From Tubiluchus corallicola (lineage: Eukaryota; Animalia; Priapulida): 64,000 bases of DNA. Positions 18,669 to 43,251 of this stretch are shown here, piece by piece. Position numbers and translations under genes: made by a program. The DNA lies in the NCBI GenBank assembly GCA_030141605.1, contig JAQGDQ010000075.1, forward strand, positions 648,269-712,268, read 5' to 3'. Below the pieces are notes generated by a model. The model did no database searches and had not been told where the DNA came from. It saw only the letters and a list, made by a program, of their open reading frames with translations. How positions within the stretch are numbered: the first letter of the stretch is position 1; the number at the start of each line of letters is the position of its first letter.

Positions 18669-18941
18669 ACAAAAAATAAATTGCCTTATCCGTAGCTAAT
18701 TAATTAAATTCTATTATACACTATGCATTATTCTTCAATTCCACCATGTCACCAAGTAGATGATCCTGCAAGATGTCTACAATTATTATTCCTGAATGCG
18801 AAACTTCGATGTGGTAATAATGCAATCGTACACTTCTCCCTTAATGACGCAGTGGATAATTTAGTAATGGAATAGAAACAGTCCCAAAAGGTGAGCAATG
18901 TGCGCAATATGTCAGAGCCGGGTAATTCCCACAGATACTGT

Positions 18942-18977
18942 TCACTTCCGTCGACCAAAACAAGAAATTGGGTGAAG
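18942..18977 (-). CDS. AstC: Allatostatin-C/somatostatin-family precursor, last coding exon (LHPISCFGRRK-stop)
   Basis: Strong acceptor atttcttttgcag at 18978. Phase-0 join to exon 20542-20664 gives KR-DYFRKCQLHPISCF-GRRK*, i.e. C-x6-C-F with the PISCF signature and an amidation signal. Confidence 0.88.
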   Translation of the reverse strand, partial: LHPISCFGRRK

Positions 18978-19075
18978 CTGCAAAAGAAATAATAAATGTT
19001 CTGTATAGATAGGCACGTACGATTATAGATAAGTACAAAATCTAGCTTAATTCGTTAATTCATTAATTCATTCAT

Positions 19076-19146
19076 TCGTCCATCCATCCATCCATCCATC
19101 CATCCATCCATCCATCCATCCATCCATCCATCCATCCATCCATCCA
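19076..19146. repeat. (TCCA)n microsatellite
   Basis: Tandem TCCA flanked by TTCA units. Confidence 0.95.
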
Positions 19147-19719
19147 GTCATTCATTCATTCATTTTTATTTTGTTATTAAGTCAGCCAGTTGGTTGGCAA
19201 GTTAGCTGGTTATTGGGACAGTCAGTCAATCAGTCAGTCCGTCATTTATTTATTTGCCTTTTTCCTATTGTTTCTATCTTGCTTCGTTTCTTCTTCTGCA
19301 TTATGTCCCTCCTTCCACACTTCCTAACCGGTTCTCACATCTTCCTTATGTCCTTCCCTAGTTCGTTTCTTTCTTGTGTCTTTTTTTCTTATTCTCTTCT
19401 CTTCCCTCTGCTCTACCTTCAGCACCGTAAGACATTTCCTTTCCTTCCTCCCTCTTTTTGTACATTTTTCTATCTGCTCCAATTGTTTACTTATTTTTTG
19501 TATTCCGTTTACTCTGTCGATTTAAGCTGAAAGTGAGTAAATCGTTTGATAGTTTTAGAGCTTCGCATTTCAGAGAACATTAAAACAACTGGCAAACAGA
19601 GGCTCCTTTGGTTATCCGAGTGATTCGCATCTGGTAAGGCTAAGCCTGTGACCTGAAATAAATAATGCAAAAAAGGACGGCCTGGCGACCAGCAGACGAT
19701 CAAGTAGACAATTATGCTT

Positions 19720-20040
19720 GCCTCCATTTTGAATCGAAAATGGCGGATGCGACTCAGATACAGATTTCATTTTAGCATATTTCTATGACGATCCATCGCG
19801 AATTAGCAGAGCGTTAGATTTTCTCGAAAATTATGTTATTTTGAATTCAAAATGGTGGATCGAAAATCCGATTCCGCCAGTCGATGCGAAATTCCTGCTA
19901 GTATGTTCGTGTTAAGTTTCATGACGACCCATTGTAAATCCACGGCATTTTGAAAATAGTCGCCCCAGCAACAATGACAACAACAACAACAAGTTTCAGA
20001 TGAGGAGCGGTTTGAGTCGAGCCTCAACCAAAAGCTGAAT
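19720..20040 (+). mobile_element. Dispersed non-autonomous repeat, copy 1 (internal subunits aaaatggcgg/tttcatgacga, CAA-rich tail)
   Basis: Similar to 26960-27330 and 30660-30950. Confidence 0.6.
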
Positions 20041-20541
20041 TTTTAAGTAGCTTTTCTGCATCTAGGAATGTGCAATTTCAAGAATATAAAAAGTAATACT
20101 TCGGGCAAACTACGAATTTAAAGAAAGGTCCCCAGAGCATAAACCTAGTATATTAAACTCGACAGTTAGCTCTTGACAACTACCCTGCAACAAATCTGTG
20201 ACTTGTCCGTCACGCAATGTAGGCAGGCAATTTTTCGTACAAACTGACTTAAGTTTTAATCAGTGTTATTATCACTTTACATGGTCATCCAGCCACCGCA
20301 AATTCACTAACCTCTAAAATAAAGGCAACATGTAAAGAACCCATGGTCGTACCTTTTTATTCTTAGTCTTTGTATGTTTTGTAATTATTGCATTTGACCC
20401 TCTGTGTGTGACATAAATCGTCTATGTCTGTGTCTATGGTTAAGACCGTTATGCAGCTTAGTTATATAAAATTTCTATCAGAATAAAGGTCTGAGCGTTA
20501 TACATTTAAGTTATTGACTGTTAAAGTTAAAAGACTTTTAC

Positions 20542-20664
20542 CTGACATTTTCTGAAATAATCTCGCTTCTCCGCTAGCGGTTGTACATCTCGTCCTCCTT
20601 CCACTGCTCTCATAATAGCATTGTCTATGAGCATGTTCAACAATCGGTACTGATCTGCACTTTC
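20542..20664 (-). CDS. AstC: Allatostatin-C-family precursor, middle exon (ESADQYRLLNMLIDNAIMRAVEGGRDVQPLAEKRDYFRKCQ)
   Basis: Acceptor tttttatgtag at 20665, donor CAG/GTAAAA at 20541, 123 nt phase 0-0. Contains the dibasic KR site and the first Cys of the peptide. Confidence 0.88.
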
Positions 20665-23600
20665 CTACATAAAAATATAAAATTGTTAAATAATCTGAGG
20701 CAAGCGGAATACATTAATAAATACGTGTAGCTAATTTTAATGTTCTTACAACGTAAAAGAATAATAACTATAGTCGATAATCTTAGTGTAATGGTTGATA
20801 TATTTGACTAGAATCAGAAAGTTCTGGGAATTTTCTCTATCGCCCTACATTTGGAATATATATCGCCCTGTCAGAATACAATACAGTCGTAGGTTCTGCA
20901 AATCTATGAATGTAATATGAATTATTGTTGTACTGTAGAACTATCTTATGGCAAATTTAATTAATGTAAGCCTAATCATGTAAATAGATTCACTATCTTC
21001 CATAATATGATTTTTATTTTGCATATCTTCATTACTAAAGTATTAATTAATTTGTCCAAGTCCTTCTGTCTTCATGAGGATTTAAAAACGTGATTGTTAC
21101 TTCGTTCATTGGGAGGGAATAATTGTGTGGGGTCGGGTTGTCTTTGGTGAACAAAGTTAAATAACACATACCAAGCTTGGTCTGTACGTAGGTGGGTGAT
21201 AGCTAGGCAAACTGCTGCTCGGCTGCTTCACCTGTCATACTGCTATCAGCAATTTATGTACTAAAGGGAATATGCACACTACGGAATATTAGGAATCTGA
21301 CCCTATCCAACCAAGCCCAGATTGGGCGTGGGTTTTCGGCTAACTTCGTTGGCGATCGTAGCGGTGTCATTAATAATTAGCTAGATACCAGTCCCGCCAC
21401 AGTCATTTACTTTAAGTAGGCCCTATACTTGAGTGTTGATCTGGGCTTGCAGAGTGATGAACTGTAGGGCTATAATATGGAAGGAATTTATATTGTAACG
21501 AACCCTTTCCCTAGGGAAATGCAGGTATCTGTGACATCATTTCCCTTTATAGCAAATGGCTTGTACCTGACGAAGCCTGTGCATATTTTAGGCCCTATTT
21601 AGTCTGCTTTACACTAAACTCATTGGTTCAGTTCTTAGTTCCCTGTCATACAGCACGCAAGAAAGGACTTCTGGGAAATTATTACCCGTTAATTTCCGGT
21701 TATGTCGTTCTTTTGATGGTGTTGGGCACGTAAGCTCAGTACAGTAAGAGACCATTCTGACAATAAAAACTAGCAAAGTGTTTAGCAGTTATTAAATGAA
21801 GTATATAAATATAATATTAAACATCTACTGAAAAAAATGAATGATTTAATGAAAAACGAGTAAAAGATATACGCACGAACTGATGCCTATGAACTAAATA
21901 AGAATGTATCATATAAATGAACAATCGCAGAAAAAAGATTTTACCGTTATTGGTGACAAATTGGTTTTTTGACACTTGTTCTATTGCATTATCATTTGCA
22001 TAAAGAAGAAAGAGATAAATAGACAGAGGAGAAAGAGAGAAAGAAAGCATTAAAATGAAAACATTTTATAAAATGTCGTATAAACCATGTAGTATTTGTA
22101 CTAAGAGCTGCATAATTTCATTTTTCATGTTATTATAAATTGTTCACTCTGTTGTAAAAAGTTACAAACGCATAATTGGTTGATCGACCGGGTCGCGAAT
22201 GAGATAAAAAAGTGTCGTTGTTACATGATGCTTACATGCGATCTTACCTAGGAGTTGGTCAAGCATTAGTTGAAAGTGTGGCTAAGCGTTGCAGAGTACT
22301 CATGGGATAGCAGGGGTTAACCGTAAAACGAAACGTTCGCACAAATATAGTTGACAGGATTCGGGAGTTGGCGTTTTATTTCCAAGAACGTTTTTCATAC
22401 ACCAAATGGCAGCTTTTACGATGTTAATAACAGCAATCATTCAAATTGCCATAGATGGAAAAGTGTAAGGTTTAACTCCTTTGTGGGCTTCTGCCACGTG
22501 ATGTGGCAAAAGAACAGAAACCTGATGCTGATTGATAGTGACAAATCATAGGTTTTATTCGACTTAATCTGCCGATATCACTGACAGTTGCGTTATTTTA
22601 AACCTCGCACCTTTTATCCCTTAAACGTCAGACCATGGAAGTAGGTGTATTTGGAAACAAAAATGCAACGTTATATATACAATTGCATAGTGGCTAAGTG
22701 ACAAATTTTTATGAGAAATGTTCTTTACATAAACAAACAGGAATAAAGACCGTAAAATGTAAAATTATCATAGAGAAGTTTGATTTGCCTGGGTAATTAA
22801 TCAACCCAATGGAGAATAATTCGCGAATTTTGTAATTTTTACTCGTGCTTAAAAAACTTTGTGCATGTAAGGTGTTAAAAAGTAACGCTAAATCGAATAA
22901 ACCACTAAATGGAGTTTCTTAGCTTCCGAGGTTATTATGCGCAAAAAGTGAAGCTTACGATGACTATATATGTAGATTTTTGTTACAAGCAAAAAAAAGG
23001 CTAAAAGATAACAGAGATCAGAAACCATTTACAATGCAAAATGGCTGATGACTACAGAGCTAATATTTTCAAAAAAAAGATCTTCAAGATCAATAAAAAA
23101 ATTAAAATCATTTAGTACTCTTGAAGTATTCGGAAGTGAAAACCGAGTTTGTCCACACAACAAGTATTAATTCCCACTTAGTATTAACTAACGCCGTTAA
23201 TTGCCCCGCAAAATAACCAATCGCAACAAGAAGTACAATGATGTTGAAAACTGGTGAGCTAAGGATATCTGGCGTCCTGAAAGCATATACACACGAACTT
23301 CCAAGAAGGTGACCAGAAATACTAATACAAATAAACGAACTAAATAAATTCAGGATAAATCCGTTCTATTGCACATTAAGATAAATCCATTGTGTTGTAC
23401 CTAAGCCTAATGTGGAGAAAAGGCTTTGGGAGTTGTGAACAGAAAAAAAGTGAGAAACTGCTCCCTATTTTGGTATATTCGTTTTAGTTATCATATTTCC
23501 TTTTTTTTCATGTCGTGACTTAATGCTCTATATAGGTCTTTTGCTCTGTGGCTGTGGCAAACGATGACTATACATGCCACACCAAGTACTGAAGGACTAC

Positions 23601-23912
23601 TCATACACAAATTAGGCTTTGTAAATACTTCTTTATGTCTATGCTTAGACGAGGAACAAAATGTCGAGCACTTGAGGTACAGACTCATGTTAACTGATGA
23701 TACTATCACGCAGCAGTTTTTAGTAAGGTTAGACCGAAAAAATTTGAGTAATATAGACGTAGAAAAAAGGTCGAGGACTTAAAGACTTATTTCGTTAGTT
23801 TCGCAATATTATGCGCAGTATTTATATTAACTAAACAAATAGCTAGAAAAGTAATGGGCTTGTATATATTTAAAAATTTGTTGTAAATATGTTGGCTTGC
23901 AAGTAGAGGCGG

Positions 23913-23946
<34 letters not shown>

Positions 23947-26900
23947 TATATTATATTATAAAAATAAAGATTTATTATCATCGTCATCATCATAATATAA
24001 ATATGAATAGATGAACTATGAATATTCAAAATTAATTTATTAATATTAAAAAGTGATTTTTGAATATTTAAACTGTTATTCATAAATGATTTATTACTAT
24101 TAGAAATTCCACTTTGGCGTTCTATATGTTCCATTACCCTCAAACAAAGTGCAGTAGTTATATAACATATTTACTGTATGTAGCATTCGAAAGGCAATAT
24201 TTTCTACATCTCAAGACGCTGATGATCTTTTCACATCATTAGAAATGTGGATGATATTGGGCAAGTCAGATAATATAATAAGTGGGTTTTTAAAACAATA
24301 AGAATTCAAGCTTAGTAGCAAGAAGACAATTTAATATCGCATTCAGCATGGAGGTGACGAAACTTTAAAAAATGTAAATATCTGGGCAGGTTGTTGTGAC
24401 ATTCTGCGGGGTATAATATTAAAGGATAAATTGATTTGTCAGGAATACAGGGCAAACGTTTTCTTTTATCTAAACTGAACACACCACAGTGCATCACGTT
24501 TGGGTAAAAGTAATAAAGAGAAAAATTATTAAGCTTTTCCACACTAATCTCTCAACGCATGGTCTTTTATCCAAAATTACACGAAGGTCCTAGTAGTTTG
24601 GTTAAAACCGGGACGCACGCGTTCTTCGTGCTATTTTCAATGTATTTAGAAATTCAAGAATGAACAGCTGGCAAAGAAGCGTAATTGCTTTTTTATAAAA
24701 ACCACAAATTATTCAATAGCAAACTTAACGAATAAATCAATAGTCACTTCCACATATACGTGTGACAAAACTCAAATCACCCCAAATCTAGGTTAATGAA
24801 AGGTGAGGTAGAGATATTTGCCAGCGTGTGGATCCAGTAGACAGTCCAGTGGACTTAGAGAATGCACCTCAGCACGTTGAGCGACCACGGACCCAGTCGT
24901 CGCGTATATATCTGCACAGAAACTGCTTGTAGCGGCTCACAACTTTGCTGATCCTCCCGCAAACGTGAATTTGACAGGAACTACTATCCCAAAACTTCAA
25001 GCGACTCCGTAAACTCGTGTTTTCCAGGATTCGTCAAAGTTGCACAAGAAAGCGAGAAAACTCTTCGCTTCAACAATACACCTGGAACCCATTGAGCATT
25101 CTCACCCAATCCGATTCTGTTAACCCGGATGCCTGCACTCCACCAGTCCCACTAGCAACCGATGTGGACTCCGCATCCATTCCAAACAAGCCACACAATA
25201 TGAAGCTCCACGGCTACTTTTAATGCTGCGAAAGAACCATCTTGGACTTCTCTCAAAGAAATAGAGAACGTAAACTAAAAATCACTTGTTTGGGATGGCA
25301 GTTATCAAGGAACTGTTTCGCTGCTCCTCTCGATCCAACAGATTACAGGATCACCAAAATCTGCTGCAAAATGTCTTTCCTCTATAGCAGCATAACCTGT
25401 AACGTCAGCAACAAGGAAATCATGGCTCAATGAATCCCCGAGGCGCGAAGATTTACCTGTGGATAACCACTGAAGTCGTGTTAAGGAAGATTGCTATCAA
25501 AAACGGGAAGGAGAGAGGTACTGAAGGATGGGCACAGACCCAACCCCATCACACAACAAAAGTGAACATTTTATTATTAAAGCCATTAATTAAAATGGTG
25601 TACAAATGAACTCCTGAACTCCGGACGAGGCCGACTGTGACGCCACAGTTGTTAAACATTGATGCTAACAGCGCAGGAAGATTCTGTGACACTGGCCGCC
25701 TTATTCAAATCTCACTTACGTTTTTTTGAAAACTCCTGTAGGCAAACTTCTACTTCCTGTCTACATCAGCTGAAGCTGTATGCAGAACGATGAACACTAA
25801 AAGTTAAGCAGCAAAGGAAACAGAATCTTTCCACAGAATCTTTCCACAGAATTGGATATCAAATGGCCTGATGAACTATCCAATACGTATAGAAAGAATT
25901 GGAAAGGCAAAACAAAATCTGAAGACTGCATCACTTTAAATGTGCTCGAGGAATCTCAGATTTACTTACTATACTTGTCTTACTTGAACCAACACAATGC
26001 CCAAAAATGATCAACTACTGACTTATACTGACATACTATCGACTCGCCGCCTTTCAATGTAAGTGCAACAATACATGTGCAACAATACATGTGCAATAGT
26101 GCATGTGCAACAATACATGTGCAACAATACATGAGCAAAAATGTGAGAACAATCATCATACAGTTGCCGAGAAATAGTAAAAACTGTCCCAAAGTACGTC
26201 ATTCAAGCAATCTATCGCGGACATTCTCATTGCTTAACTGCCTTGTGCCACGTGCTACTTGAAGTTCTCCAAGTTCGAAAAAGCCTTTCAGCGATAAATT
26301 GAAGGTCTTCGTAAGTGCCCAAAGCCGCGCCAACATTATTATACCGCCATGCGCATTTAAGTTGTTTACCGCTTTTCCGGACGAAATGGCCAATCGTTGT
26401 GTTATAGCAATGCTATCATTTTGTAATGAAATTGCCTGTTATCATGCACAAAGTCTATGGGCGATCATTGACAATTTTAACTGAGATTTCCAAGAAGATT
26501 GCAATATCCGCTTACCTTCACGTTTTCACGTTTTTGCGCCTAGGATATTACATACGCGTATAATGATCACGCTTATCCAATCATGTATATTACCCACAGA
26601 GGAAAAAACTAAAATAAACTGCCTGAACAAAACAGAGAAGTTATGGCCATTCAAGACCCTAGTCAAGATAACCAACTTGACTTATACCAAAGACCTAAAA
26701 TCTCATTTGTACATTTTTATTACAAAAAGTTTACTGGCGCTGTGTTGCTAACCACCAATAACTTCTAACGTCGCTTTTACACGCTGTCAGAATTTCAGAT
26801 ATGTACACAGGATAAACATTACACAATGGTAAAGAAACAAAAAAATTAAAAACAATTCAAACGTGAATGAAATATATCAAATGTGTCTTCTACACGTAAA

Positions 26901-26959
26901 ATTAAACGTCGTTAAGTTTTTTTATGTTAAAGGCAAAGAAACCAAGTTCCATTCGAACT

Positions 26960-27330
26960 ATTGGTCGAGGGGTACGCTTGAGCTCAAGATTGTGGATTAG
27001 AAATAGAAATGACATCAATGCCGCCATGAATTTAAGATGGCAAATCAAAAGTCAAACTCTGTCAATCAGTGCATAATTCACTGTAGTATATTCCTAAAAA
27101 TTTCCATGATCGAATTGGTAATGCCTTAGGCGTTTCTTCAAAAATGATATTATTGCTGACCTTGAACTCAGAAGGGCGGATCAGTTTATGGATAATTCGT
27201 TTTAGTATATTCGTTGTAACGTTTCGTGACAATCCTATTCAAATTCGCGGAGCCTTAAGCTTTTTTTAAAAAGCCATCCCCAACAATAAGCACAACAACA
27301 TCCACACGAATAACAATTTAGCTAACAGTT
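26960..27330 (+). mobile_element. Dispersed non-autonomous repeat, copy 2
   Basis: ctcaagattgtggattagaaat...gaatttaagatgg...cccaacaataa shared with 30660-30950. Confidence 0.65.
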
Positions 27331-27484
27331 CGCTGGATTTTTATATTTAATATACTAATTTTTTTAGCTAAATTTTGTAACATATCCTGTCGCTATATTT
27401 CTCTGTTAAAAATGTGTGTATAGTTTGTAACACTGTTTTATTTGATACAACTAAATTATGAATTATGAATTATATTTCACCAAG

Positions 27485-27730
27485 AGCAATGGGAGTGGAT
27501 GATTGGTTGCGGTGTATACTTAGCGACAGAAGTTAAGCAACGCCCGACCTGGTTAATGTTGGATAAGCCAAAAAAAACTGCATATTGGCGATTATCATCT
27601 GCCATATTGCTGCTCCGGCAATTTATATCGTTACATCCAAACATGGCGAAGATACGTTTGCCTAACGTATAATCATCTCAGAGGATTAATCTTGCTGATG
27701 AAATGGATTGCTGTCCTAACACTACTGTCA
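27485..27730 (+). mobile_element. SINE copy with tRNA-like/5S-derived head
   Basis: gaagttaagcaacgcccgacctggttaatgttggat resembles 5S box A to box C; body similar to the 3580 copy. Confidence 0.6.
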
Positions 27731-27959
27731 AAATAACATGTAGGCCTTGTCGCATATTCCAGGGCGTGCAACTGCCAAATAAAAGTGGCTAGAAAATCAC
27801 GCCTATTTATACAACTATATGGTAATCATTATAAAACATATAGTTGTCATTAATAATATTCAAGAATATGAACTTATCGATGTCTCACAAATCAAAAATT
27901 GCGGAAATATTTAAAATATCTGAATCTATACCGCTCTGTCTCTATGAATTACAATATTA

Positions 27960-28210
27960 TTTGAGCCGAGTGGTTAGTGTATACGGCGTGTATTTGGCGG
28001 TCGAAATCAAGCAATGGCGAGGCTAGCTAGTGAACGGATGGGTGGTCAGCGGGTTTAATTCTCGCTCTGGACGGTTTCATTTGTCGCTGATTCTAGTTAT
28101 CTACCTCGTTTTGGAAGGATGTAGTCAGTGTCTCAACTTATATGATTAGTTTTGATAATGGGCAGGGCTCTGGTCTTACCACATTAAGTGGCTTCTGGGG
28201 TGGCGTGTGC
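27960..28210 (+). mobile_element. SINE copy with tRNA-like/5S-derived head
   Basis: agccgagtggttag (tRNA A-box-like), then gtcgaaatcaagcaa...ggatgggtggtc. Confidence 0.55.
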
Positions 28211-28794
28211 CAAATTGCCTCAACGTTGCTATACAAAACATACATCTAACTTCACCTTTACGGTTAAGTTGCTAATTTTTAAATGCAACATTAAAAATTT
28301 TACACGTGCAAATTATGTCTGTAAGTTTTCCATAATTGACTTCCATCCCATTTCATTAGTCAGAACCTTTGAGCATTATATGCAAATTGTCCCCAAGTAC
28401 TTATCCATAACTTAAGATTAGTAACTGTTGAACATCAGTACTACGTATATTCAGCGCTGAAATGACCCAAAAAGTTTATTGTTTAATGTTTATTCAACAG
28501 TCATACAGTGATATCAGACTACCATCTTTCAGTGCAGTAAATGATGCTGAATCGTAGAAAATAGTACAACGATTTAATGATTTTATTTAGCACAATAGCC
28601 AGTAACAACAATACATGCCAAGACTCCTAGTAGAAGTTTGTATTAGAAACTTCGCATCAGTAAAACGCGCCTTGATAGATGCTATCAAGCCAAAGAACAA
28701 GTATTTATGGCTTCCATTAAGTTTAATTCACTTCAATATTTCCAAGGGCTGATAATCATTCAATAGTCGCATAACTGTACCAACTAGATTGTAT

Positions 28795-28985
28795 GTCGTT
28801 TCGCCAGGCCACAATTTGCCAGTCTGTCTTTTCGTCAGGGAATCATTTCGCCAGTCTATCTTTTCGCTACTCTGCCTTTTCGCCAGTGCTTCGTTTCGCC
28901 AGTCTATCTTCTCACCAGTCCATCTTTTCGCCAGCCGATCTTTTCGCTAGTGCGTTGTTTCGCCAATCTATCTTTTCGCCATTGA
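28795..28985. repeat. Degenerate tandem repeat (tttcgccagtc units)
   Basis: About 11 recurrences of TTTCGCCA-like units. Confidence 0.8.
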
Positions 28986-29324
28986 TATTGGAATTAGTGC
29001 AATACGTAGGAATGTTCATTATACTGCCAATGGTAATTTTTTTTAATGGTAACTAAGGTACACGTCTATGTAACAAAAACGTCTAAGTTACTGAATCTAA
29101 GAGCATTGCGCGAAGTGGTGATAGAATCAATCAATCTCTATCCAATGCTGTACAACACAGCCGCAACTGCTACAAGGTTGCATGTCGGTACCATAGTTAT
29201 ACTTAAATAGCAGGTATGGGCATTTTTTCCTTAAAACGCTCTGAGAACAGAAGCTATAAGTCGTCCAAAGATGCCCATATATCATCCGATTTGCCGCAAA
29301 ACCTAAAATCAGATGGCTTCACCT

Positions 29325-30435
29325 CAAATTTACGAATTGAGCTTCGTTTTGCCACAAAATGGCGATAAGTAAGATGCTATAAACCGAAAATGTTCACATT
29401 CAGAATCTGGTAAAATCTTTGGTCTATGGTGCTTAGTTCCCGAGGTACAGATTTTTTTGTAATAACTCAATAACTACTCGACCAAATGTGGCGTGCTTCT
29501 AATCAGGGTATACGGCCATTCTAGCTTGAAGTTTCGGGTCGTGACCCTTTGCCCTGCTTGAGCCATGACCTAAAAATCGTCAAAATAGTGTACTACTTGA
29601 GAAGCCATTACTCCCACAAGAAGCACCGCCTATCCAAACGAGAAAAAAACAAGCACCGTGCATTGGCTACGTGTAGCCGGCGTAGTTTCTGCCCAGACGC
29701 CCTTTCTGAATGGCGCCACGAGATTTGTAAGACTTTTTCTGGGGAGATGCTACAAAATCTTATTTTTAAAATGCAATTACACACACAAAAAGCGCCCTCT
29801 AGCGAACCAAAAAAAAAAACAAGTGAAGTATTGTGTGCTACATTGTTAGATAGACGGACTATCGCCACCTGTCTTGAGTAACATATTGTGTATAATCGTG
29901 GTAAATTCCAGCAAAAATTATGACCTCGAGGTTCTAATGGCTTCTCGACTTAGTAAGCCAAGGACGTCTCTATCTCGAGTGTTAGCCACTTTCTTCCATA
30001 AGGCTTTCTTCAAGACATATGGATTGCCAAACTAGGCATTTCGACACCTTCACCGATGGCAGCAGTTTAGGGTTCGACAAAATGGAGAAGTGTATCTATA
30101 GCCAAGACAGAGTTGCTTTTTTGTTTGTGACACTTCTTGTAGGTATCATGGCTTCTCAGTGGACATATTTTGACGATTTTTGCGTCATAATTCAGGTTCA
30201 AAGGTTCACGACCTGAAACTTTAAGCTAAAGTGGCCATGTATCCTGGCTACAAGCACGCCAAATTTGTTCGAGTAGCCCTACCTATTTTTGGGTTATTCC
30301 AAAAAGATCCGTATTTCGCAAACTAAGCATCAAAGGGGCAAAAATTTTAACAGATTCTGAAAGTGCACATTCTCGGTATCTAACATCTTACTTATAGCCA
30401 TTTCGTGGAAAAACGAAACTCAACTCCAACTTTCA
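29325..30435. mobile_element. Foldback/large MITE with about 320-bp imperfect inverted arms
   Basis: 29325-29650 is the reverse complement of about 30110-30435, e.g. gaagtttcgggtcgtgaccctttg vs caaaggttcacgacctgaaacttt and cattcagaatctg vs cagattctgaaag. Confidence 0.8.
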
Positions 30436-30659
30436 GATAGAGCATCATTGTATATTTAAATGCGCATATGTGGATTCCACTTTTTAATCTCATAAGATAA
30501 ATTTCTAAGAGCTGCTATCTTATATACAAAAGTTTTGTCCTAAAACAACCGGTAATTAGAATCGTAGGGCTAGGTAAGTTTTACAAGGTTCGTTTTATAC
30601 TAGTAAACTGATTTTTTCTGTATATTCTGCACTATTAAGTTATACAAACAAGTTAGACT

Positions 30660-30950
30660 CGAACTGTTCTACGAAGGACTCGTTAAACTCAAGATCGTGG
30701 ATTAGAAATGATGTCAATGCCGACTTCTTGAATTTAAGATGGTAACTCATCCGACTCTGTTAATCGGGGCAGAATTCGTTGTAGCATATTCCTGTAGGGC
30801 TTCATGACGATCCATTGCAAATTGGCAGCATCTTGGGCGTTTTTCGAAAATGATCCTTTTCAAAAAGGTCATCCCCAATAACAATAACAACAACATCCAG
30901 AAGAGTAGCGATTTGGGCCGAGTCTCTCGACGAAAATCCCTGAGTCAAAG
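30660..30950 (+). mobile_element. Dispersed non-autonomous repeat, copy 3
   Basis: Similar to 26960-27330 and 19720-20040. Confidence 0.65.
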
Positions 30951-31619
30951 ATTAAATAACTTTTTAGTTTTAATGGCTTAACTTGATTTTGCTGTAAGTT
31001 TTCTATCAAATTTAACTACTAACGTTCTTGTAAATAATTGCTTTCTGTTCAAATTATTACCAATAAAAGGCATTATAACTGCTTCGTGCAAAGTTCTTGC
31101 TTTTCTTGCTATTCAAAAGTTGTTAATCTTTGTTTTCTGACGATCGTGCACTCAATTGTTAATCTCACTGGACTCATTAATAAGTGGGTAGAAGACGTTG
31201 GAGGTGGGCAATTTTACCTGCCATATTGTTCTCTTGATTCTCACGACTGTGGGTTGGGGGTGTATGCGCATGCTGCACCTGTTTGATACCTCTGCTGCAC
31301 CTGTTTTATCCACTAAAAGATTATAATTTGTAAATAACCCCAGTGTTTATCTGCAGTTCATCAACAGTTTACCAGACTGTATTCTTCTTGCTATGAATGC
31401 TGATACTATGAATTCTGCAATCCCAGATAGGTTTGCCCATCCATACGTTGATACAATGAAGGCAAACAATATTATAATTAGTGCAGAAGTCCACGGCAGA
31501 AAATCGCCATAATGTAGAAGTAAGCCATCGCGAATTCAATACAAACTAGTGAAGAGAAAAGATCAGCAGGAAGCCAAGGAAATCCATTATTGAATGTGCA
31601 GATACATCCTGGTGTAACA

Positions 31620-32100
31620 TCCCTCAAACTTTATCTGAAAACTTGGAAAAACTTCAAAAACGTGCCGCTTACATCTGTTCCAAAGCTATGAAACACACAA
31701 ACTCTGATAACCTATTGTTCAAAGTTGGCTTCGACCTCTTGTGTAACAGACGTACATTTCATAGATTGAGCACTTTCATAAAACTGTAAATCATGTTTCA
31801 TCTCCCTTGTTATTTGAGTTGCTACCTCCGATCAATAGAGGTGCATCTGCATATTTATTGAGAAACCGTGACAATTTATTTTTATATCAAGTTCGCTGTA
31901 ATTAATTCCGCTCATTCTTCTTCCCTGCAATCGTGTTTGACTGGAATAATTTACTCTTATATTTAAAGTCAATTCCTACCACCAGTGGGTTTTCAAATTT
32001 CAGTTTTTTTTCAAGAGACCAACTTATTATTCGCATGGTTCTAGACTACACAGCATTCAACCATACACGTCTGAGGGTGGGATGAGCACGAACATTTTTT
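31620..32100 (+). mobile_element. Decayed CR1-like LINE ORF2 C-terminal fragment
   Basis: Translates to LEKLQKRAAYICSKAMKHT..L..RR..HRL, YLLRN, SFFFP...DWNNL, TRLRVG with stops and frameshifts. Confidence 0.8.
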
Positions 32101-33419
32101 CAAAGTTAGCTACCATAAAATCTAGCTTTGTGGGCCTGCTCGTTTGCACCATAATTCCCAGGCAATTCACTACCACAATTAGACCTATGCTCCCTATAGA
32201 CAAACGCTTAATTATTAGATCATATTACAGACATTTACTCTCGAATTCGCGTGCTTTACCGATAATTTGTATGACAAATACGGTCCTTTGACAAAGTGAT
32301 TGAAAGATCGATTGCGTCTGTCAAGAGGCGGACGCATATGCTCGATAAACTACATTCGCTATACCACTGCTGTTGTTCAGCTGTAGACTTTGAAAAACCC
32401 CACAGGTCGTGTGTCGGTGCATTTAAGAAATAACTCAAGCCACTTAATATCATAGCTGAAAAAATACCTGCCACATTCATAATAATGGTGGTGTCATTAA
32501 GTTCGCTAATACCACTTAGTAATGAAATTTCACACTGAGACCACCTTAATAACAATATTGTGGTAAAAAATTAGTAATTTGACAAAGTTAACTAGACCAA
32601 ATATTTCATTATAACAAACCTCACTGGACCAAATCATCCATTATTTGACATCTTAATCTGTAATGTTGCGTGGTGGTGTTTTTCACGTAACTGGTCTTGT
32701 CAATTTTGTTAAATTACTTATTCTTACTAAGATGTGGTACTAAACGTGGTCTCAGTGTGAAATTTCGCTATAGCTACTTTTTACATGTTCCCGAAATTCT
32801 CTAACGAGTCTGTTAAATGATGATGTTTTGCTCTAAAAACAATAAAACAGTTACAAACCTACATCAATTATGACGTCGGTTAGCTTCTCAAGATCTTTTA
32901 CAAGATATCATCATCATCGACCACCACCATCATCATCATCATCATCAGGATGACAGATTTTATCATTCATTAAGTGATTGACAGGATGACTGACCGACTT
33001 TCTGATTAGCTAAATAAATAACTGAGTGACAGATCGACTAACCGACTGATTGACTGACTAAGTAACTAAATGAAATAAAGCCTGACTCACCAAACCTGAG
33101 AAACAACCTAGCTAGTTATGTGAGGTATAACGTTTAGCATTTCTTAGATGATTTTCTAATCAATGGTTTCAACACAGGTAAAAACTACATAATTTATCCT
33201 GCTTGTAGCACTAAAACGTGCAGTGGTGATGAACACAAGTCGAACAACAGTTTGTTCGCGACACCTAGTACATATATGCGCCAGACACCAATACCGAACA
33301 CATGAAGACATGAAGACCTAGCATTCGCAGTACATGTTCGAAATGTTTACATTATTTTTCATTATTTAACCCCTTACTTTTATAACTACTTTTATGGCAT
33401 AATTATATTCACTGAAATT

Positions 33420-33775
33420 CATCGTGTAACAAAGGCTTATTAGGTAACAAAGCAGCATGACATAACTGAAATGCTACATTGTGTAACATATTACGTCATT
33501 CGTCATTACGTAACGAATCTTGCGACATTACGTAACAATCATTATGTGGCAAAGTTTGCGCCACACGTAACAATCATTATGTAACAAAAATAATGCATGA
33601 TTACATAGTACTTGATTTTTCTTACGTAGTGATTGTTACGCAATGACGCAAAAATTGTGACGTGTTGATCGTTACATGGTGATGAATTTTGTGATTTGTT
33701 AAACAATCCCGTATTTCCTGATATATAATGCCGAATTTTTACATAATGAACCTTTTGTTACATAATAAACCGCTA
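33420..33775. repeat. AT-rich degenerate tandem/inverted repeat (tacgtaac/ttatgtaac units), MITE-like
   Basis: GTAAC units in the left half flip to GTTAC units in the right half. Confidence 0.6.
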
Positions 33776-34235
33776 GCACTCCTATTTCTGAAAAACAAAA
33801 TCTCCTAATTTAGCATCAGACTTGATGTTTGACTGGTTTACTCGATTCTTAGCCTCTAGTGCTTCTTATGCTTCAAGTTGCTACTCTTACTTCGTGTGTA
33901 TTACGTACATGAACCGATCCAGTGATGTAATTCAGAGTGGAACTATTTGACAAGGGAAGACGCTTGATAGCCGTAAAACAATGGATGGAAATATCGTCTC
34001 TGTTGCTCAAGGCATATCCTGACATTTGGCGGCATATTAAAACGAGCCACTTAATAAAAGATTTCAGTCGTAAGAGCGTGGCTCACTCGACAATTGTCAT
34101 GGTGAAGGTGCTCCAATATGAAAGGAAGTTGTGCGCATGAACTGAATAGTAATGACGCCGTGAGCATCAGTCCTTCGTTTTACAAGTTCACTAACGCTCA
34201 TATTACTTTGATAGTGAGTTAGGTCCCAGTCTCAC

Positions 34236-34424
34236 CACAATCATCCGATTTGAGTAGAACCTGCTGTTGAATGCCGCTTGCAGATTCCGAGTTGTAAAAA
34301 ATTCGGATTTTTCTTTTGTAGTCCACTGACCGAAGGAAACACATATTCGAAGGAAGAGCAGTGTATTCAGGAAGATTCCTTTCGGGAACATGGTAATCGT
34401 AATCATTAAACACGAATTCAGATT
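34236..34424 (-). other. Exon-like segment inside intron 1 of the neuropeptide gene
   Basis: ttctctatag acceptor, GTG/GTGAGA donor, 189 nt, open in both phase 0-0 and phase 1-1. Product not recognised. Confidence 0.3.
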
Positions 34425-37400
34425 CTATAGAGAATGTTCTACGATTTGTCGTAGGCGTTTACTGCATAGGAAGGTCTGCTGTTAACATTTGTTCGCTGTG
34501 CAGAAATAAATAAAGACAATGGCGCAGATTTGATGATGATAATAAATGAAGACAATGATGAACAAAGTGGTTGTCTAAACCGGTAGTTGTGATGTGGTGA
34601 CAGTGATGGTGAAAGTGACAAAGCTACTGAGAGAGGTCGTGGTGCTAGTGGCAGCAATGGTGATGGAAATTATCTAAGAATTGAGAGACTAATCTGCCCA
34701 CATTGATTACTCAGCACAGATGTTTAAATATGCCGTATGAGAAATTTTTTATCCCAAAAATGGTTTACTATATTTTTTATTCTGCCCAAGAATTTTAAAT
34801 GTTAATACAGCAGTTTTCTAAACAGTAAATGACCAGAACAAATCATACAGCATTCTTGATAGTGATCTTGATTAGTGTTCAACAATTCCCAGCTTACCTC
34901 AAAAAGATTTTCCTGAATAATCTACACCGCTGCTTCCAAATGTGTGTTTCCTAAGGCTTTCTCCAGTAAACTTTCCTAAAAGTTGTTCCCAAAACTTCCC
35001 AAACTTTCTCAATAGATACCCTATCTGTAATAACTGCAATCTGAATTATTACTAATATCATGTACTTACAAATGCTTACTCCCCAAATCTTGAAATATGT
35101 GTATCTTTGATTTTTTTAGTAGGTGATAATAAATTAAGTTGCGTTATGTCAAAAATAGAAAAGTATGTTTTGACAATATCAATTTTACATGCAAGCAAAT
35201 CAAAAGAGCTTTTTCTCTGAAACGGCAATATGTCCTGTACATGAGTAATAGCTGAACTACTTGGCCTAAGAATATTGTCTAATTTTTCATTTTTCTGCTT
35301 CATTTTCTTTGAAATATTTTTTTTATTGTTGCGTGTAGAAAATTCTTCTTCTCGTATATTACATGCTGATTATTCTTTAAATTGATTCAGACTCGGTAAT
35401 TAAAGCTTTTTTCGGACCATTACCGTGCAGGCGTATTTGTAATAAAATTTGCATAATCGTTTTCCAAGTTCCAACTGAAAATGGTTCACAGACGGTTTGC
35501 GCTAATGTAAGCATCTTGTATTATCTTTTTCTCTTCATTTCTGCATGAATTTGCCAGTTAAGCAGATATATAGGATAGATACATAGATTACCTACAGAGC
35601 CTACACAGGCAAATAGAGAGGCAGGCGGGTAGGACATGTAAATGTACGTACGTGAATATGTACGTATGATTATAGAAACACAAATTATTTAATACGTAGC
35701 AATTATGTAATTAAGCAGGTACGTAAGTCTTTGAAATTTGGATTTATTTGTTGATCCATTTGGTACGATATTACAATATACAAAATATTACAATTACAGA
35801 ATTGACAATGCATTACAGTGCTATGAGCGTACAGAACAAATTAACTTATACGCTACGCTCATCGTGAATAGGCCTTAACTATGGCATAAACATACTGATA
35901 AAATTATGCTGGTAAATAAGGTAGAGCAAATGGAGGCGACGCCAGAATCGATGATCTAAACTAAGTGAGTTATTTTTACAGTGTTATGAAGATTAAAATT
36001 AAAATAGTGAACTATAAAAGATAAGGATGTGTGTTAAGGAGCCAGGAGAGCACTCCCATATTTGAAAGTGTATAAATCCAGTAACTGCATAGGTAATAAA
36101 GCAAACAAACAAAAGCACATAACAAAAGACAAGCAAATTGAGAAACAGAAAAACAAGCAAAGAAAAAACAACAAATCAAAAAATCAGCAAACATTTAGAT
36201 TTAGAATAACCTCTGCCTATGTTTTAGCCTCGTCTAATGCCAAAGTCTATGGTAAATATTTTACAAAATAAATTAGAAAACCACAAAGAAGGTAGCAACG
36301 GCAAAGCTAAACAACTAAACTTTACTATTTAATGCTTTAACCGAATAAGGAAAACTAATACAACAGCGAAGCTTTAATAAATAATGGGGTTCGGTGACTG
36401 TCTGTGAGGAAAACACGTACAAAATTAGGTTTATGTAACGAATGTGCGTGAAGTGGATTTAGCGCATCTTGTAATCATATTGTCAATGATTAAATAAGCC
36501 ATTTTTAAAGCGTAGAACTCATGTGAGACTCAAACAGCAAGTTACTCTGTTACTGTTGTATTATAGAAATTACATATACAATTCAGTTATATAATTTTGT
36601 GATAACATGCTTTTATTTACTGGATTAGCAACAGCATCCGCAACAATAATAATAAACAAGCATGGCAACCATATATCAACTGAAACTTACGCTCTTGAAT
36701 TTACGGTAGATTTTTGGGCTTTTATGACCTTTCTGATGTAATTGAGCGAATTCTTTCTGGGTTTGAGAGAAAACGAAAAACGGCAAACGCAAACTTCGCC
36801 TTCCCAGAAATATTAGGGTTAAAATAATTATTCCCCGGGAGATTGGTTAGAAGCAGCTAGTTTAACAGACATTTTCTGGGCTGCCACCGGATCTCTGCAA
36901 ACAGTATAGATATGGTCTGGCGGATTTAATCGTCTTTAGTTAAAGCTTCTTTGTAAGAGAGAATGGAGAGCTTTGCAAAAGTTGTATAGGATTTTCCTGC
37001 GTAATAGAAGATTGTTTCTTGGGGATTGAGTGCGCTTCTTGAGTCTCAACTATTATCGAGAATGCACGTATTAGCTCTTCGTGCAATGAACCAAATGAAA
37101 AAGTTCAATTTTTCATGCACAAAAAAAGCTTACTTTGAAAATAAAATTATGCATCCTATTTTCGATATAAGCTTAACTGAAGATTGATTTCGAACAAACC
37201 CAAGTCGTTTGACCTATACTGAAAATTTTGAAGGTTTCTATAGTATTTGATGACAAGGAACTAACATACGGCTTCGTCTTAACTGCCAAGTTAATAACGG
37301 CATTAGCGTGCATGCGAGCTAACATCAGAGTATTTGGAGTTACTAGTCTTACACGTCTCTCGGGCAAAACAAAAAAAGCTAGAATTGGATCCATGTACTA

Positions 37401-40400
37401 AGTTGTTATTAGAATTTAAACCGAAATGCGGCTTCCCATGTTCCACTACGATTTCATATAAAAAACCCAAGTCGCAAAAGTAGTCTAGCTGAGCAACCAC
37501 CTTAGAATAATAGACAATTTACATGCGACTTCTCCGCACTTTTTATACGTTAGTGTTGGGTTAGGTTGGGTTGGGTTAGGTTGAAATAGACAATAGCAGA
37601 GATTTTTGCATTTCTTGTCAGAACTGCGTAAAGTAACTTTCATCATCTCAACCTACGTAAGTAAGTTCATATTTCACAAATGATCATATCGTTTAATCAA
37701 ATTACTTTCATTTCAACTGCAACATTTGAAATTGTGACAGTGTTAAGTGCATGTTTACAGAAACTTTTAAACAATATAATAATTATTATTGAAAATTATT
37801 GAACATTATTTTTATTGATTGTTTGAAAGTTTGAGGCTTAAAGTCGCACATTGATCTTTTTTGATGTGGCTCTTTACCAGACGTCACGGTTTTTTATCTT
37901 TTGGTAAGTTTAGTTTTCAATTCTGTTACTTTGTTGCTACTTTCCTTTAGACGTTTAAATTGAGTAGATGTAAAAATATTTTATGTGAAGCACATTAATA
38001 TATATAAAGTTGGATGATGGCTGAATGACTTTCTTACTAATGGTAAATTATTATTACAGTGATTAACTTGTCGAGCGAGTGTCTTAGAAATGGGCGAGTG
38101 TATTTCTGTATACATGTTATTACATAACTATTCCCTGTTAAAGATATCACCGAAGGCCTGAAACAGATGCCATCAAAGACTTCAAACATATTTTATGTAC
38201 AGCAACATTAAATTGTTGTGCTGTTGTATGTAATAACTTTTTGTTCAGCAATGAATTCGTGCTTCATATTGTTGAAACATGTGTGAATGATTTTCTGTGC
38301 TAAATAAATAAAAGAAAGGTCATATGATTATGCATATTCTTTTCATAATACAATTCAGGCCATTGATGATGCAAAACACTTCAAAGTGAAATTTCGACAA
38401 AACTTTCATCTGAATGCAAATGTTTATAAAGAAAAATATTGAGCAGTCACAAGACAACGGGTTTTCTGAATGACGTGTCAAAAGTAAAAGGTTAAACGTA
38501 TAGATACACTCATCGTCTGATTAATATATAGATGAATGCATTGGCTTCGTTCAAAGACTAAGACAGCAGGACAAACACACTCACCGTACCACTGTTAATT
38601 AGGATTCCATTTGTCCATATTGTCTTCCTTACACAAGACATATCCGACAGACAGTTAGCTCAGCTTCTCAAATTAGGCAGGAAGGGATTACAAAATTGTA
38701 TTACATTTGTATTCACTTATCTGACGTTGGACATTCAAGCGCGAACGTGGGAACTAAATCGCTGGGACGATATGACACATCTTCGCTATTCGTAGTAATT
38801 AAATTTCATATTAAATGAAATATATAGCGAAACGATTTTCTTTTCTTTCCCTCTTTTTTATGAAAATCGGCACCCTGTAAGCCAGAATCTGGCATTCAAC
38901 GACAGGGCATACTTAACGTTGATGTTTATGGCAAGAACATGGCTACTTACGAATGCTTTAAGATGAACCGCAGAACCAATTACAAGCCAAAGTTGTAAGA
39001 CGTATAGTATGAGTACAGAGATGGCACAAGTAAACTTTCATAATACATTACAATATACGTTGTTTGTAAGGACGAAGAGAGTATAGGTCTAAGTTTCCTA
39101 ACTGATTTTTTTAAATCTCGGTTGTTCACATCAAATGAACGGAAGCAGACTGAATGCTCAAGCTTACTAAGATTTTGGTTTATCCTCATGAATTTTCAAT
39201 TCGTGTAAAAATTAATGAAGCGCAAACTAGAAAATCAGTCAAATTACTACTTGACTGACATGTATAACTCCATTTTATGAAACAAACCTTCGTCTGCTCA
39301 AATTCCCTGCCCGAATAATTCGATTTCTTCAACGATATTTTACCAAGTTGATTAATTTGCAGCGAAATTATCATTTAGAACTGATATGATGCAAATTATA
39401 AGCCTGCTTCCTTAATGACTTCTATTTCAAACACTAATAACAAAAATTGCATGTCTTCGTAATTCCAAACTTTAGAAAATCAAACTGTGTTTCAGTCACT
39501 AATAATGTCGCAGAGAACGTTAAAGTTTCTCAAACGAAGAGTATTAAATGATCCTGCTTCGACGGATTTTCCGCGATTTGCTTAATTAAACAATTGACTT
39601 GTTTGCAGGCGTACTATCGTTTGCAATTATAATTTTAATCTATTCAAATAAAAATCGATAAATCGGTCAAAATTGAGATTAAGTGTCGCAGTATAGTCAC
39701 TGTAAACAGATATCGTTCCTTACAACTAGCCTGTAAAGCAATGATTATTGTGCCATTAAAGGTTGAGTGTTTGTACGAGTGTTTAAAAAATCTTTTAAAG
39801 ATCCGTTCAATTTCTAACTTTGGAGATATTTAAAACTATAGTTGACGTATCCCACGTGAAAATTCGCGTGGTTACGGTAAATAGAAGTTGTGCTTGTCTA
39901 TTTTTACTTGACTTTTTTATTAAAAAGCAAAGAGCAAATAAGACACTTTCAGATTTTAATGTGCATGCAGAGTATTAAAATTGTATTATTATGAAATATC
40001 ATACCACAGCACGCGCATGATCAAATTTTCTTAACAAGAGCAAAGTTAATCATTTTTAATACCAAAACACTAGATTAACTATGTTGATTACATGATTATT
40101 GATTGTTGATAGTTGTTACCTATTGAAAACTTTTTTGTTCTCATTTTACGACTAATTTTACGATGAAAAACGATTCATAACAAGTTTCCAAAAAGTTCCC
40201 ATCTCCTTTAATCGATCCAGAAAAAGTTATATATGTATTTTTTTTCGTAAGTTTTATATATTATATGTATATATATATACATTATGTACATTATATACAT
40301 AATTTCAAAAAGCTCTTTATATTCTAGTGACGGCATAACTCGCAACCGTTGTGTCGTTCAATTTTCATTTTGTGAAAACAGGCCGGTAATTTTAGGTAAC

Positions 40401-41893
40401 TAAGGCCCAATATATATATATATGATACAGGCAGCTAATTATTGTTGTCTGTGACGTTAGCTTGACCCTTCAATAGTTTAGCGCCAATAAAATCTTATAA
40501 TAAAACGCATTATGACTATAATCGTAATACGTTTGCTTACATAAAATACTTTCAGAAGTTTATTTGATAAGAGATGCTGCTTAAAATTTTGTCAAAAAAA
40601 ATCAGTTGAATTCTGGATACCGTAATAATTTTGCAAACGATGACAGAAACACAAGGAAGCTAGCTCATAATTAACTCGGAACAAACTGTCAAGCAGAAAA
40701 TTGAGCAACATTACCTGTACGTTTGACGAAGAATGTAGAAAACCATACCACGAAGGTCCCCCTCTGAAGTGAGATCTGTGATGATCGTTACATTTCGCAT
40801 ATTTCACTTATAGATGCACGTATATAAACACTTAGTAACTGTGTCATAGACTTGTACAAAGGGGCAAATTACACAACGCCCCTACACATGTAGTTATTAA
40901 CATTGTAAGGGATTACGAAGCCGTAGAGATATCAAGGAAAAATAAAATGTAACAACAAACCCCTCAATCAGGGTATGCTATAACATAGCCTGGGACAAGC
41001 TGAAACAATGGTAGTTATATTCAGTTATCTGGCAAGATTTTTTAAGAGATTAATAATACGTTTTATTATAGAAACAAGCTAATACACAAATATAGCATGG
41101 CGCGCGTCCCCGGAATAGTGAAATTTTATTTATATTGTACTGATCAAACTTTTAACAACAAAATTATTGAACATAACATCTAGCAATAAATTTAACTCTG
41201 ATAAACAAATGTTATTTAAAATTTAATGGTGATTGCCGGTGAGTGATGGATTAGTAACTGGAATCGCCGGAGTCGAAATTCTGGCATGTAATTAGCGAAA
41301 TGGCTCTGTTGAACAACAGCGTTACAACTAACCCCAAGAGGAGTTTTCTACTGATAAACCATAATTTAAAAAATACTTCAGGATTTAAAAAATTTGTTTT
41401 CGCAAAGCGTAGTTGATGGACAATACTTTCTTATTTGCTACTTAACAACATTTGAAACAGCGTACTTTAATTAACAGATCAAATATTGCAAAAAAGCAAA
41501 AATTTACTTTCAACTGTTAAAACCGTCTCGAGCTCAGAACTCTACTCAGTACACTAAACACATCATCACTGACACGCATATAATAGAACGGTTGCCCAAA
41601 TGTCATTGTTACCCATGAACCCTCAGCCAATGATAACGGAGATATAAAGGCTGTTTCAGCTTCCACGTGTTACATTCACCCCGGCCTCACCTATGGTAGA
41701 ATGAAATCGACGCTTGTTACAGTGTAAAATGTTGCTGCAGTGCTCAAAAGTTTAAATTATAATTGATGTTATCTAAACAAAATAACAATTGTTTAACATT
41801 AATAACAATAGCAATAAAAAATAACAACACCCGCTTAAGTAAAACTTGTACACCGTTGTGCAATAAAAAAAATTTTTATCCTAAGTTTCTTAC

Positions 41894-41974
41894 CTCCTCG
41901 TCTGGTTCCGCTAAAGCCGCACTGATAAACAAAACAAACGCGAAAAAGCTGGTGAAAAACATAACGTTTTGCAT
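41894..41974 (-). CDS. AstC: First coding exon: signal peptide MQNVMFFTSFFAFVLFISAALA-EPDEE, assigned to the allatostatin-C-family precursor
   Basis: ATG 41974, hydrophobic core, A-L-A cleavage site, strong donor GAG/GTAAGA in phase 0, core promoter about 130 nt upstream. Linkage across the 21-kb intron is inferred. Confidence 0.75.
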
Positions 41975-42096
41975 AGTGACTGTAATTCTTTCTTTACAAT
42001 GCTTCCAGTAAAAATTTAAAACAATGAAAAATTCTTAAAGTCCTTTTCTCCTGTGTCTTCTAGTATGCTTCTCCTGTCCTCTTCTTATCACCCACT

Positions 42097-43220: not shown

Positions 43221-43251
<31 letters not shown>

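What the first reader, a model, noticed from the sequence alone, without database searches (positions are those of the whole stretch)
18942..41974. Hidden allatostatin-C/somatostatin-family neuropeptide gene split over 23 kb
Seen: three small minus-strand exons with canonical splice sites join in phase 0 to MQNVMFFTSFFAFVLFISAALA-EPDEEESADQYRLLNMLIDNAIMRAVEGGRDVQPLAEKR-DYFRKCQLHPISCF-GRRK*. None appears in this frame in the ORF track. Known: AstC peptides lie at the precursor C-terminus after a dibasic site and have C-x6-C-F, as in insect ..CYFNPISCF; Gly plus basic residues signals amidation. Inference: the mature peptide is DYFRKCQLHPISCF-amide with one disulfide. Extra exons in the 21-kb intron cannot be excluded.
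Basis: partly seen in the sequence, partly recalled or inferred. Interest (0 to 1): 0.88.

Follow-up and report, generated by a model that had tools for sequence, protein, structure and literature searches.

The report
Priapulid amidated allatostatin-C neuropeptide gene
Three small exons spread over 23 kb, in what is likely a priapulid (penis worm) genome, encode a short hormone precursor predicted to release a ring-shaped, amidated allatostatin-C-type peptide; it belongs to a known family, but its likeness to both arthropod and ribbon-worm versions hints that this subtype may be older than arthropods.

Summary
Three minus-strand exons with GT-AG phase-0 introns (21,229 and 1,564 nt) give a 79-aa precursor. 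One 605-nt contig from a related animal's run spans both junctions with no extra exon. An independent 79-aa protein matches 70/79 residues and has an identical mature peptide. The only named close relative is Priapulus caudatus 'prohormone-1-like' XP_014663882.1 (47/79). The neighbouring gene also hits only P. caudatus, so the host is likely another priapulid. Remote hits are arthropod AstCCC/prohormone-1 precursors, whose pro-region aligns gap-free. The peptide mixes types: an AstCCC-like start and amide donor with an AstC-like end. It is allatostatin-C family, not somatostatin proper, and a priapulid member was already reported. The one fresh lead, read by eye from supplements, is a close likeness to the 'nemertean-only' allatostatin C2, which is amidated by mass spectrometry. 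That suggests an amidated paralogue older than the arthropod triplication. Processing, receptor and function are inferred. New member of a known kind.

The parts
42165..42172 (-). Palindromic CRE-like octamer upstream of exon 1 (the only copy in the window); an E-box-like hexamer lies at 42153-42148
   Evidence: about 0.003 expected in 250 nt, about 0.7 in the whole window; the CRE label is recalled, function untested
42124..42129 (-). TATA-like box, candidate core promoter
   Evidence: inferred
41975..42068 (-). 5' untranslated leader, contiguous with coding exon 1
   Evidence: X1 contig aligns to 42030 and its 38 loose letters resemble the next window bases; true start not determined
41894..41974 (-). 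Coding exon 1: predicted signal peptide (residues 1-22, 41974-41909) plus start of acidic pro-region
   Evidence: hydropathy 2.1-2.7 for 9-residue windows starting at residues 6-14; SignalP not run
20665..41893 (-). Intron 1, 21,229 nt, GT-AG, phase 0, in the pro-region as in other SS/AstC-type genes
   Evidence: PMC7536072 passages
20542..20664 (-). Coding exon 2: pro-region, Lys-Arg site (20568-20563), first 7 residues of the mature peptide including the first Cys (20547-20545)
18978..20541 (-). Intron 2, 1,564 nt, GT-AG, phase 0, inside the disulfide loop
   Evidence: joint 18977/20542 in X1
18942..18977 (-). Coding exon 3: last 7 residues of the mature peptide including the second Cys (18962-18960), amide-donor Gly (18956-18954), three basic residues, stop
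17656..18941 (-). 3' untranslated region; an AATAAA lies at 18668, and X1 contigs resemble stretches down to 17656
   Evidence: contigs cannot show the true end

Best explanation
This is a spliced three-exon gene, likely from a priapulid worm, for a 79-residue allatostatin-C-family precursor that is predicted to release one 14-residue, disulfide-looped, C-terminally amidated neuropeptide, which likely signals through an allatostatin-C-type GPCR. Shown: exon structure, splicing in a relative, conservation of the peptide, and homology to P. caudatus 'prohormone-1-like' and arthropod AstCCC. Inferred from established neuropeptide processing: signal peptide removal after Ala22, convertase cleavage at Lys60-Arg61 and at the terminal basic run, carboxypeptidase trimming, conversion of Gly76 to an amide, and a Cys67-Cys74 bridge (calculated monoisotopic mass 1752.82 Da). 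Inferred by analogy: neuronal and gut-endocrine release with a modulatory, probably inhibitory, effect on feeding or muscle. Within the family it is best called AstCCC-like, not classical AstC.
For: Splicing. Second full-length relative with an identical peptide, all 9 changes at residue 50 or before. P. caudatus orthologue 47/79 global identity, 15 of 17 identical across Lys-Arg, peptide and Gly. phmmer over 1.84 billion representatives gave 6 hits: the query, 2 repeat-rich proteins, and 3 arthropod precursors that all end in the AstCCC peptide (two named Prohormone-1, one unnamed millipede protein; E 2.8e-4 to 6.2e-4). The 27 residues before Lys-Arg align gap-free to the 2 of those 3 tested, beating 20,000 of 20,000 shuffles each. 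ESM Atlas top rows: Prohormone-1-like 0.94, Allatostatin C 0.90. The closest-looking spiralian peptide, nemertean AstC2, was seen by MS as the amidated 14-mer (PMC8557429 supplement). AstC peptides activate AstC GPCRs at nanomolar levels in bee and Aplysia, and the disulfide matters.
Against: No peptidomics, tissue expression or receptor data exist for this animal. X1 is only guessed to be RNA and is a relative, not this species. The loop departs from the family norm: His where most AstCs and P. caudatus have Asn, and Gln-Leu where arthropods have an aromatic residue. It has Pro where AstCCC has Ala, so a defining AstCCC residue is missing. The Atlas recognition value (2282) is just under the tool's 2300 bar, and a consomatin cluster also scored 0.90. 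The shuffle test used hits already selected by phmmer and had no AstC or AstCC control. Pfam found nothing, though it also misses a true AstCCC precursor. The clustering of changes away from the peptide is not significant alone (P about 0.06).
Confidence: 0.88

Rival explanations
1. It is the priapulid's single, unduplicated AstC gene. Its mix of AstC-like and AstCCC-like features is the ancestral state, and the CCC label has no meaning outside arthropods.
For: The mature peptide shares 6-7 of 14 residues with classical AstC, including the Pro-Ile end, against 5 of 14 with AstCCC (by eye; for AstCCC). No second paralogue was found in the 64-kb window. Amide-donor Gly also occurs in some spiralian AstC1 precursors. 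NP-HMMer authors say C, CC and CCC cannot be told apart automatically.
Against: The only family hits from the library-wide search were AstCCC precursors, and the pro-region length and register match AstCCC without gaps. No whole genome was available, so other paralogues were not looked for beyond the window.
Confidence: 0.4
2. It is the orthologue of arthropod AstCC, the label the NP-HMMer preprint gives to the priapulid peptide reported by Christie et al. 2011.
For: The preprint says priapulid 'allatostatin-CC (misclassified as allatostatin-C)' was known. Spider AstCC precursors carry a similar leucine-rich pro-region helix (by eye).
Against: The AstCC precursors read here lack an amide-donor Gly and have a longer N-terminal extension after Arg-Arg-Gly. 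Only 4 of 14 residues match lobster AstCC (by eye). I could not see which sequence Christie 2011 or the preprint's Table 1 meant (figures not held).
Confidence: 0.1
3. It is a somatostatin/urotensin-II-type (SSRP) peptide or a venom mimic of one.
For: Atlas rows for a consomatin cluster (0.90) and urotensin II (0.85); shared phase-0 pro-region intron.
Against: No Trp-Lys core, and the loop is 6 residues rather than 4 or 10-15. The second intron is phase 0, not phase 1 as in SSRP-like genes. The peptide is conserved, not fast-evolving. SSRPs are reported absent from ecdysozoans.
Confidence: 0.02

Closest known systems
Priapulus caudatus prohormone-1-like isoform X2, XP_014663882.1 (RefSeq prediction)
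   Same: Same layout and length class (83 vs 79 aa), 47/79 identical, 12 of 14 peptide residues identical, Gly plus basic tail.
   Different: Two loop residues differ (Val-Asn there, Leu-His here). P. caudatus also has a predicted isoform X1 with a longer tail after the Gly; the X1 run contig shows no such splice here.
Arthropod allatostatin CCC / prohormone-1 (e.g. Armadillidium RXG67144.1, Chamberlinius GAB6022935.1; lobster AST-C II)
   Same: 14-mer directly after Lys-Arg, Tyr at 2, aromatic at 3, basic at 4, Cys-x6-Cys-Phe, amide donor, gap-free pro-region.
   Different: Loop has Pro-Ile where AstCCC has Ala-Val, His for Asn, Gln-Leu for Ala-Phe; only 5 of 14 identical.
Nemertean allatostatin C2 (Thiel et al. 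2021, PMC8557429; labelled 'Nemerteans only' in the supplement)
   Same: By eye: amidated 14-mer directly after Lys-Arg, 7 of 14 identical (8 for Nipponemertes) including Asp1, Tyr2, Arg4, His9. A six-residue pro-region run (window residues 39-44) is letter for letter in Malacobdella grossa.
   Different: Spacer between that run and Lys-Arg is 3 residues longer; Ala for Pro and Tyr for Phe at the end. No nemertean sequence came up in the phmmer search, and no alignment statistic was computed.
Classical arthropod AstC (PISCF type; Manduca, Drosophila, lobster AST-C I)
   Same: Identical last five residues and 6-residue loop.
   Different: Classical AstC starts with pyroglutamate and is not amidated. 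Ecdysozoan AstC genes are reported to have a phase-2 second intron in the pro-region, whereas here the second intron is phase 0 and inside the loop.

Membership tests
Allatostatin-C family (broad, protostome) | Two cysteines separated by six residues | tested here: met
   Cys67 and Cys74; criterion from PMC9048919 section 12 and PMC8786951
Allatostatin-C family (broad, protostome) | Single peptide at the C-terminal end of a secreted precursor, after a basic cleavage site | tested here: met
   Lys60-Arg61 then the 14-mer; signal peptide by hydropathy only, SignalP not available
Allatostatin-C family (broad, protostome) | Phase-0 intron in the N-terminal pro-region (shared with SS-type genes) | tested here: met
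   Intron 1 after residue 27; PMC7536072
Allatostatin-C family (broad, protostome) | Sequence homology of the precursor to known members | tested here: met
Allatostatin-C family (broad, protostome) | Activation of an AstC-type GPCR by the disulfide-bridged peptide | not testable with these tools
   needs a receptor assay
AstCCC / prohormone-1 subtype | Amidated 14-mer directly after Lys-Arg, Tyr2-aromatic3-basic4 | tested here: met
   amidation is predicted from Gly76
AstCCC / prohormone-1 subtype | Conserved pro-region | tested here: met
   gap-free alignment, 0 of 20,000 shuffles reach the score for each of 2 arthropod precursors; selected hits, no AstC/AstCC control
AstCCC / prohormone-1 subtype | Ala in place of Pro in the loop | tested here: not met
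   Pro71; criterion from PMC8851493 section 5. Filed as AstCCC-like only
AstCCC / prohormone-1 subtype | Lies in a local cluster with AstC/AstCC paralogues | tested here: inconclusive
   no further copy above threshold in the 64-kb window; no genome held; split exons could be missed
Classical AstC (PISCF type) | C-terminal PISCF motif | tested here: met
   exon 3
Classical AstC (PISCF type) | Free-acid C-terminus and N-terminal pyroglutamate | tested here: not met
   Gly follows the Phe, and Asp follows Lys-Arg; reference peptides
Somatostatin / urotensin II / SSRP-like | Trp-Lys core; loop of 4 or 10-15 residues | tested here: not met
   no Trp in the precursor, loop of 6; criteria

The most novel reading that the evidence does not exclude
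The priapulid gene links arthropod AstCCC to the supposedly nemertean-only allatostatin C2. All three would descend from one amidated paralogue already present in the last common protostome ancestor, beside a second, pyroglutamyl-type AstC. The split between AstC and AstCCC would then predate the ecdysozoan-spiralian divide, not arise in a local arthropod triplication, with repeated losses in molluscs, annelids and many insects.
Probability: 0.4. Interest if true: 0.6.

Novelty: new member of a known kind. Interest (0 to 1): 0.36.

Why it matters
As an annotation it is modest: a verified gene model and predicted peptide for a phylum with almost no functional neuropeptide data, ready for synthesis and receptor testing. 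Priapulids branch early among moulting animals, so their AstC informs what the ancestral peptide looked like. If the tie to nemertean AstC2 and arthropod AstCCC holds, the history of the somatostatin/allatostatin-C family needs one more ancient duplication, and the 'arthropod triplication' account needs revising. The His-for-Asn change and the intron inside the loop are usable markers for that test.

Tried and rejected
No whole genome is held, so paralogues, the receptor and synteny could not be checked. The run search listed 2 runs and none on record as RNA. X2 covers introns at 99% or more and may be the window's own source, so it is not counted as support. Pfam gave nothing for the exons or the full relatives. 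PDB sequence search with alignment A1 gave 2 designed TIM barrels, treated as chance. Rfam found 0 matches in the window. Two of the 6 phmmer hits (P0005, P0006) are repeat-rich proteins without the peptide and were set aside. A six-frame motif scan, tblastn and an HMM found no second AstC-like gene in the window; the next HMM hit was E 0.065. Christie 2011 and Veenstra 2016 are not held. Paper searches for peptide strings found 0 main-text matches; this is a weak test, since the nemertean peptide is also absent from main texts yet present in supplements. Earlier scan notes: nothing by place or sequence, two unrelated Wamide notes by words. No structure or complex prediction was run: a 14-mer without its receptor would not change the verdict. 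The somatostatin/venom-mimic reading was rejected on motif, loop size and intron phase.
Full report
Observation. Joined by coordinates they give a 79-residue open frame from Met to stop, with both introns GT-AG and phase 0, 21,229 and 1,564 nt long. A six-frame scan found the exon-3 ending only once in the non-repeat part of the window.

Splicing evidence. The run search listed 2 runs, neither on record as RNA. X1, guessed to be RNA, covers only 7 of 30 bins of 17.5-37.4 kb, and its matches differ from the window by several percent, so it is a related animal. One 605-nt X1 contig skips exactly 1,564 nt between 18977 and 20542 with canonical ends. The same contig carries exon 2 at record 308-432 and exon 1 plus leader at 426-567. 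That settles both junctions, and the question of extra exons, for the relative; this species' own transcript was not seen. Independently, a search with exon 2 returned 1 protein among 3 candidates: P0001, a contiguous 79-aa Logan protein identical at 70 of 79 positions, with all 9 changes at residue 50 or before. X1 and P0001 differ from each other in exon 1, so three lineages carry the gene.

Host. A search with P0001 returned, besides itself, only Priapulus caudatus 'prohormone-1-like isoform X2', XP_014663882.1 (2 of 2 candidates), 47 of 79 identical to the window protein with the signal peptide conserved. The neighbouring gene at 5421-5741 also hits only P. caudatus, at 73% (1 of 1 candidate). 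The host is therefore likely a priapulid other than P. caudatus. This is inference from two genes.

Anatomy and mechanism. Residues 1-22 are hydrophobic and end in small residues, as a signal peptide would (SignalP not run). An acidic stretch and a leucine-rich pro-region follow, then Lys60-Arg61, a 14-residue peptide with Cys67 and Cys74 six residues apart, Gly76 and three basic residues. Standard processing (recalled) would give a cyclic amidated 14-mer of 1752.82 Da. AstC peptides act on AstC-type GPCRs at nanomolar levels in bee and Aplysia, and removing the disulfide lowers potency (passages of PMC4704819 and PMC8786951). In lobster the amidated paralogue has distinct effects on the heart (passages of PMC6008092). 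Receptor, tissue and effect in the priapulid are not shown. Upstream lie a TATA-like box at 42129 and the window's only palindromic CRE-like octamer at 42172-42165, which fits a neuroendocrine promoter but is untested.

Which subtype. phmmer over 1.84 billion representatives gave 6 hits: the query, 2 repeat-rich proteins that I set aside, and 3 arthropod precursors ending in the AstCCC peptide, two named Prohormone-1 and one unnamed millipede protein. Their pro-regions align without gaps up to the peptide. For the 2 of 3 tested, the 27 residues before Lys-Arg beat all 20,000 shuffles; these hits were pre-selected and no AstC or AstCC control could be run. The ESM Atlas ranks Prohormone-1-like first (0.94), then Allatostatin C (0.90) and a consomatin cluster (0.90), with a recognition value just under the tool's bar. 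Against a plain AstCCC call, the loop has Pro where AstCC/CCC have Ala (PMC8851493 section 5), and the mature peptide shares 6-7 of 14 residues with classical AstC but 5 of 14 with AstCCC. It lacks the pyroglutamate start and free-acid end of classical AstC. So it is AstC family and AstCCC-like, without meeting either subtype fully. It is not somatostatin-type: no Trp-Lys core, and a 6-residue loop. The second intron is phase 0 and inside the loop, unlike the phase-2 pro-region intron reported for ecdysozoan AstC genes (PMC9048919 section 12); I could not check it in other species. No second paralogue was found in the window.

The nemertean lead. In the supplements of PMC9048919 (parts 9-11 of 43 read) and PMC8557429 (passages) are 9 nemertean 'allatostatin C2' precursors, labelled 'Nemerteans only'. 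Read by eye, their peptide is a 14-mer directly after Lys-Arg, with 7 of 14 residues identical to the window peptide (8 in Nipponemertes), including Asp1, Tyr2, Arg4 and His9. The Lineus longissimus peptide was seen by MS with C-terminal amidation. A six-residue pro-region run (window residues 39-44) is identical in Malacobdella grossa. The other nemertean paralogue, AstC1, shares 3 of 14. Several spiralian AstC1 peptides begin with Gln after Lys-Arg, like arthropod AstC. This suggests two ancient paralogues. Against it: the His is absent in P. caudatus and recurs in a rotifer peptide, so it may be convergent; the spacer is 3 residues longer in nemerteans; some AstC1 precursors also have an amide donor; spider AstCC has a similar pro-region helix; no nemertean sequence passed the phmmer threshold; and no statistic or tree was computed on these sequences. 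Shared ancestral features could explain the likeness without orthology.

What is already known. The NP-HMMer preprint (10.1101/2024.07.20.604414; passages and section 12 read; table, figures and supplements not seen) states that Christie et al. 2011 reported a priapulid allatostatin of this family, which it relabels AstCC, and that it mined P. caudatus again. Christie 2011 and Veenstra 2016 were not held and are known here only through citing papers. The passages of PMC8557429 that I saw mention only 'a second paralog in nemerteans'. I did not find the priapulid-nemertean-AstCCC link in the listings of searches or the string searches, and 'Priapul' gave no AstC hit in the supplements searched. 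Subscription papers and unseen supplements may hold it. PMC7536072 was read in passages; PMC5209844, PMC13760995 and PMC5531438 in passages, with nothing relevant.

Verdict. A real, well-supported neuropeptide gene, found by a sharp reading of raw sequence, but a new member of a known family with a RefSeq orthologue. Interest 0.36. The ancient-paralogue reading has probability about 0.4 and would deserve about 0.6.

Noticed in passing
window 5741-5421 and 5002-4865 (minus); second copy about 1950-1639 (minus): Tandem pair of genes for a small Gly/Tyr/Pro/His-rich protein with an internal repeat. Only homologue found is P. caudatus LOC106814556 (73%), which has a signal-like N-terminus. No Pfam or confident Atlas match. 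Possibly a priapulid-specific cuticle protein (guess).
   Followed up: partly
window 54394-63872 (plus): About 9.3 kb mucin-like Thr/Glu/Val/Pro-rich tandem array (21-nt unit, about 438 copies) read as several ORFs with frame breaks, which may be assembly errors or real; likely one giant exon of a secreted glycoprotein.
   Followed up: no
window 42172-42124 (minus): CRE-like palindrome, E-box-like hexamer and TATA-like box within 50 nt upstream of the leader; vertebrate somatostatin is the textbook CRE-driven gene (recalled).
   Followed up: partly
window 10612-11133 (minus): 173-aa frame that looks like the decayed 3' end of a LINE-type element (by eye); no Pfam hit.
   Followed up: no
P0003 (P. 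caudatus XP_014663881.1): Predicted isoform with a different tail after the amide-donor Gly; several arthropod AstCCC models show similar extended tails. May be alternative splicing or annotation artefact.
   Followed up: no
window 43169-43549: Pentamer microsatellite of 76 copies about 1.1 kb upstream of exon 1.
   Followed up: no
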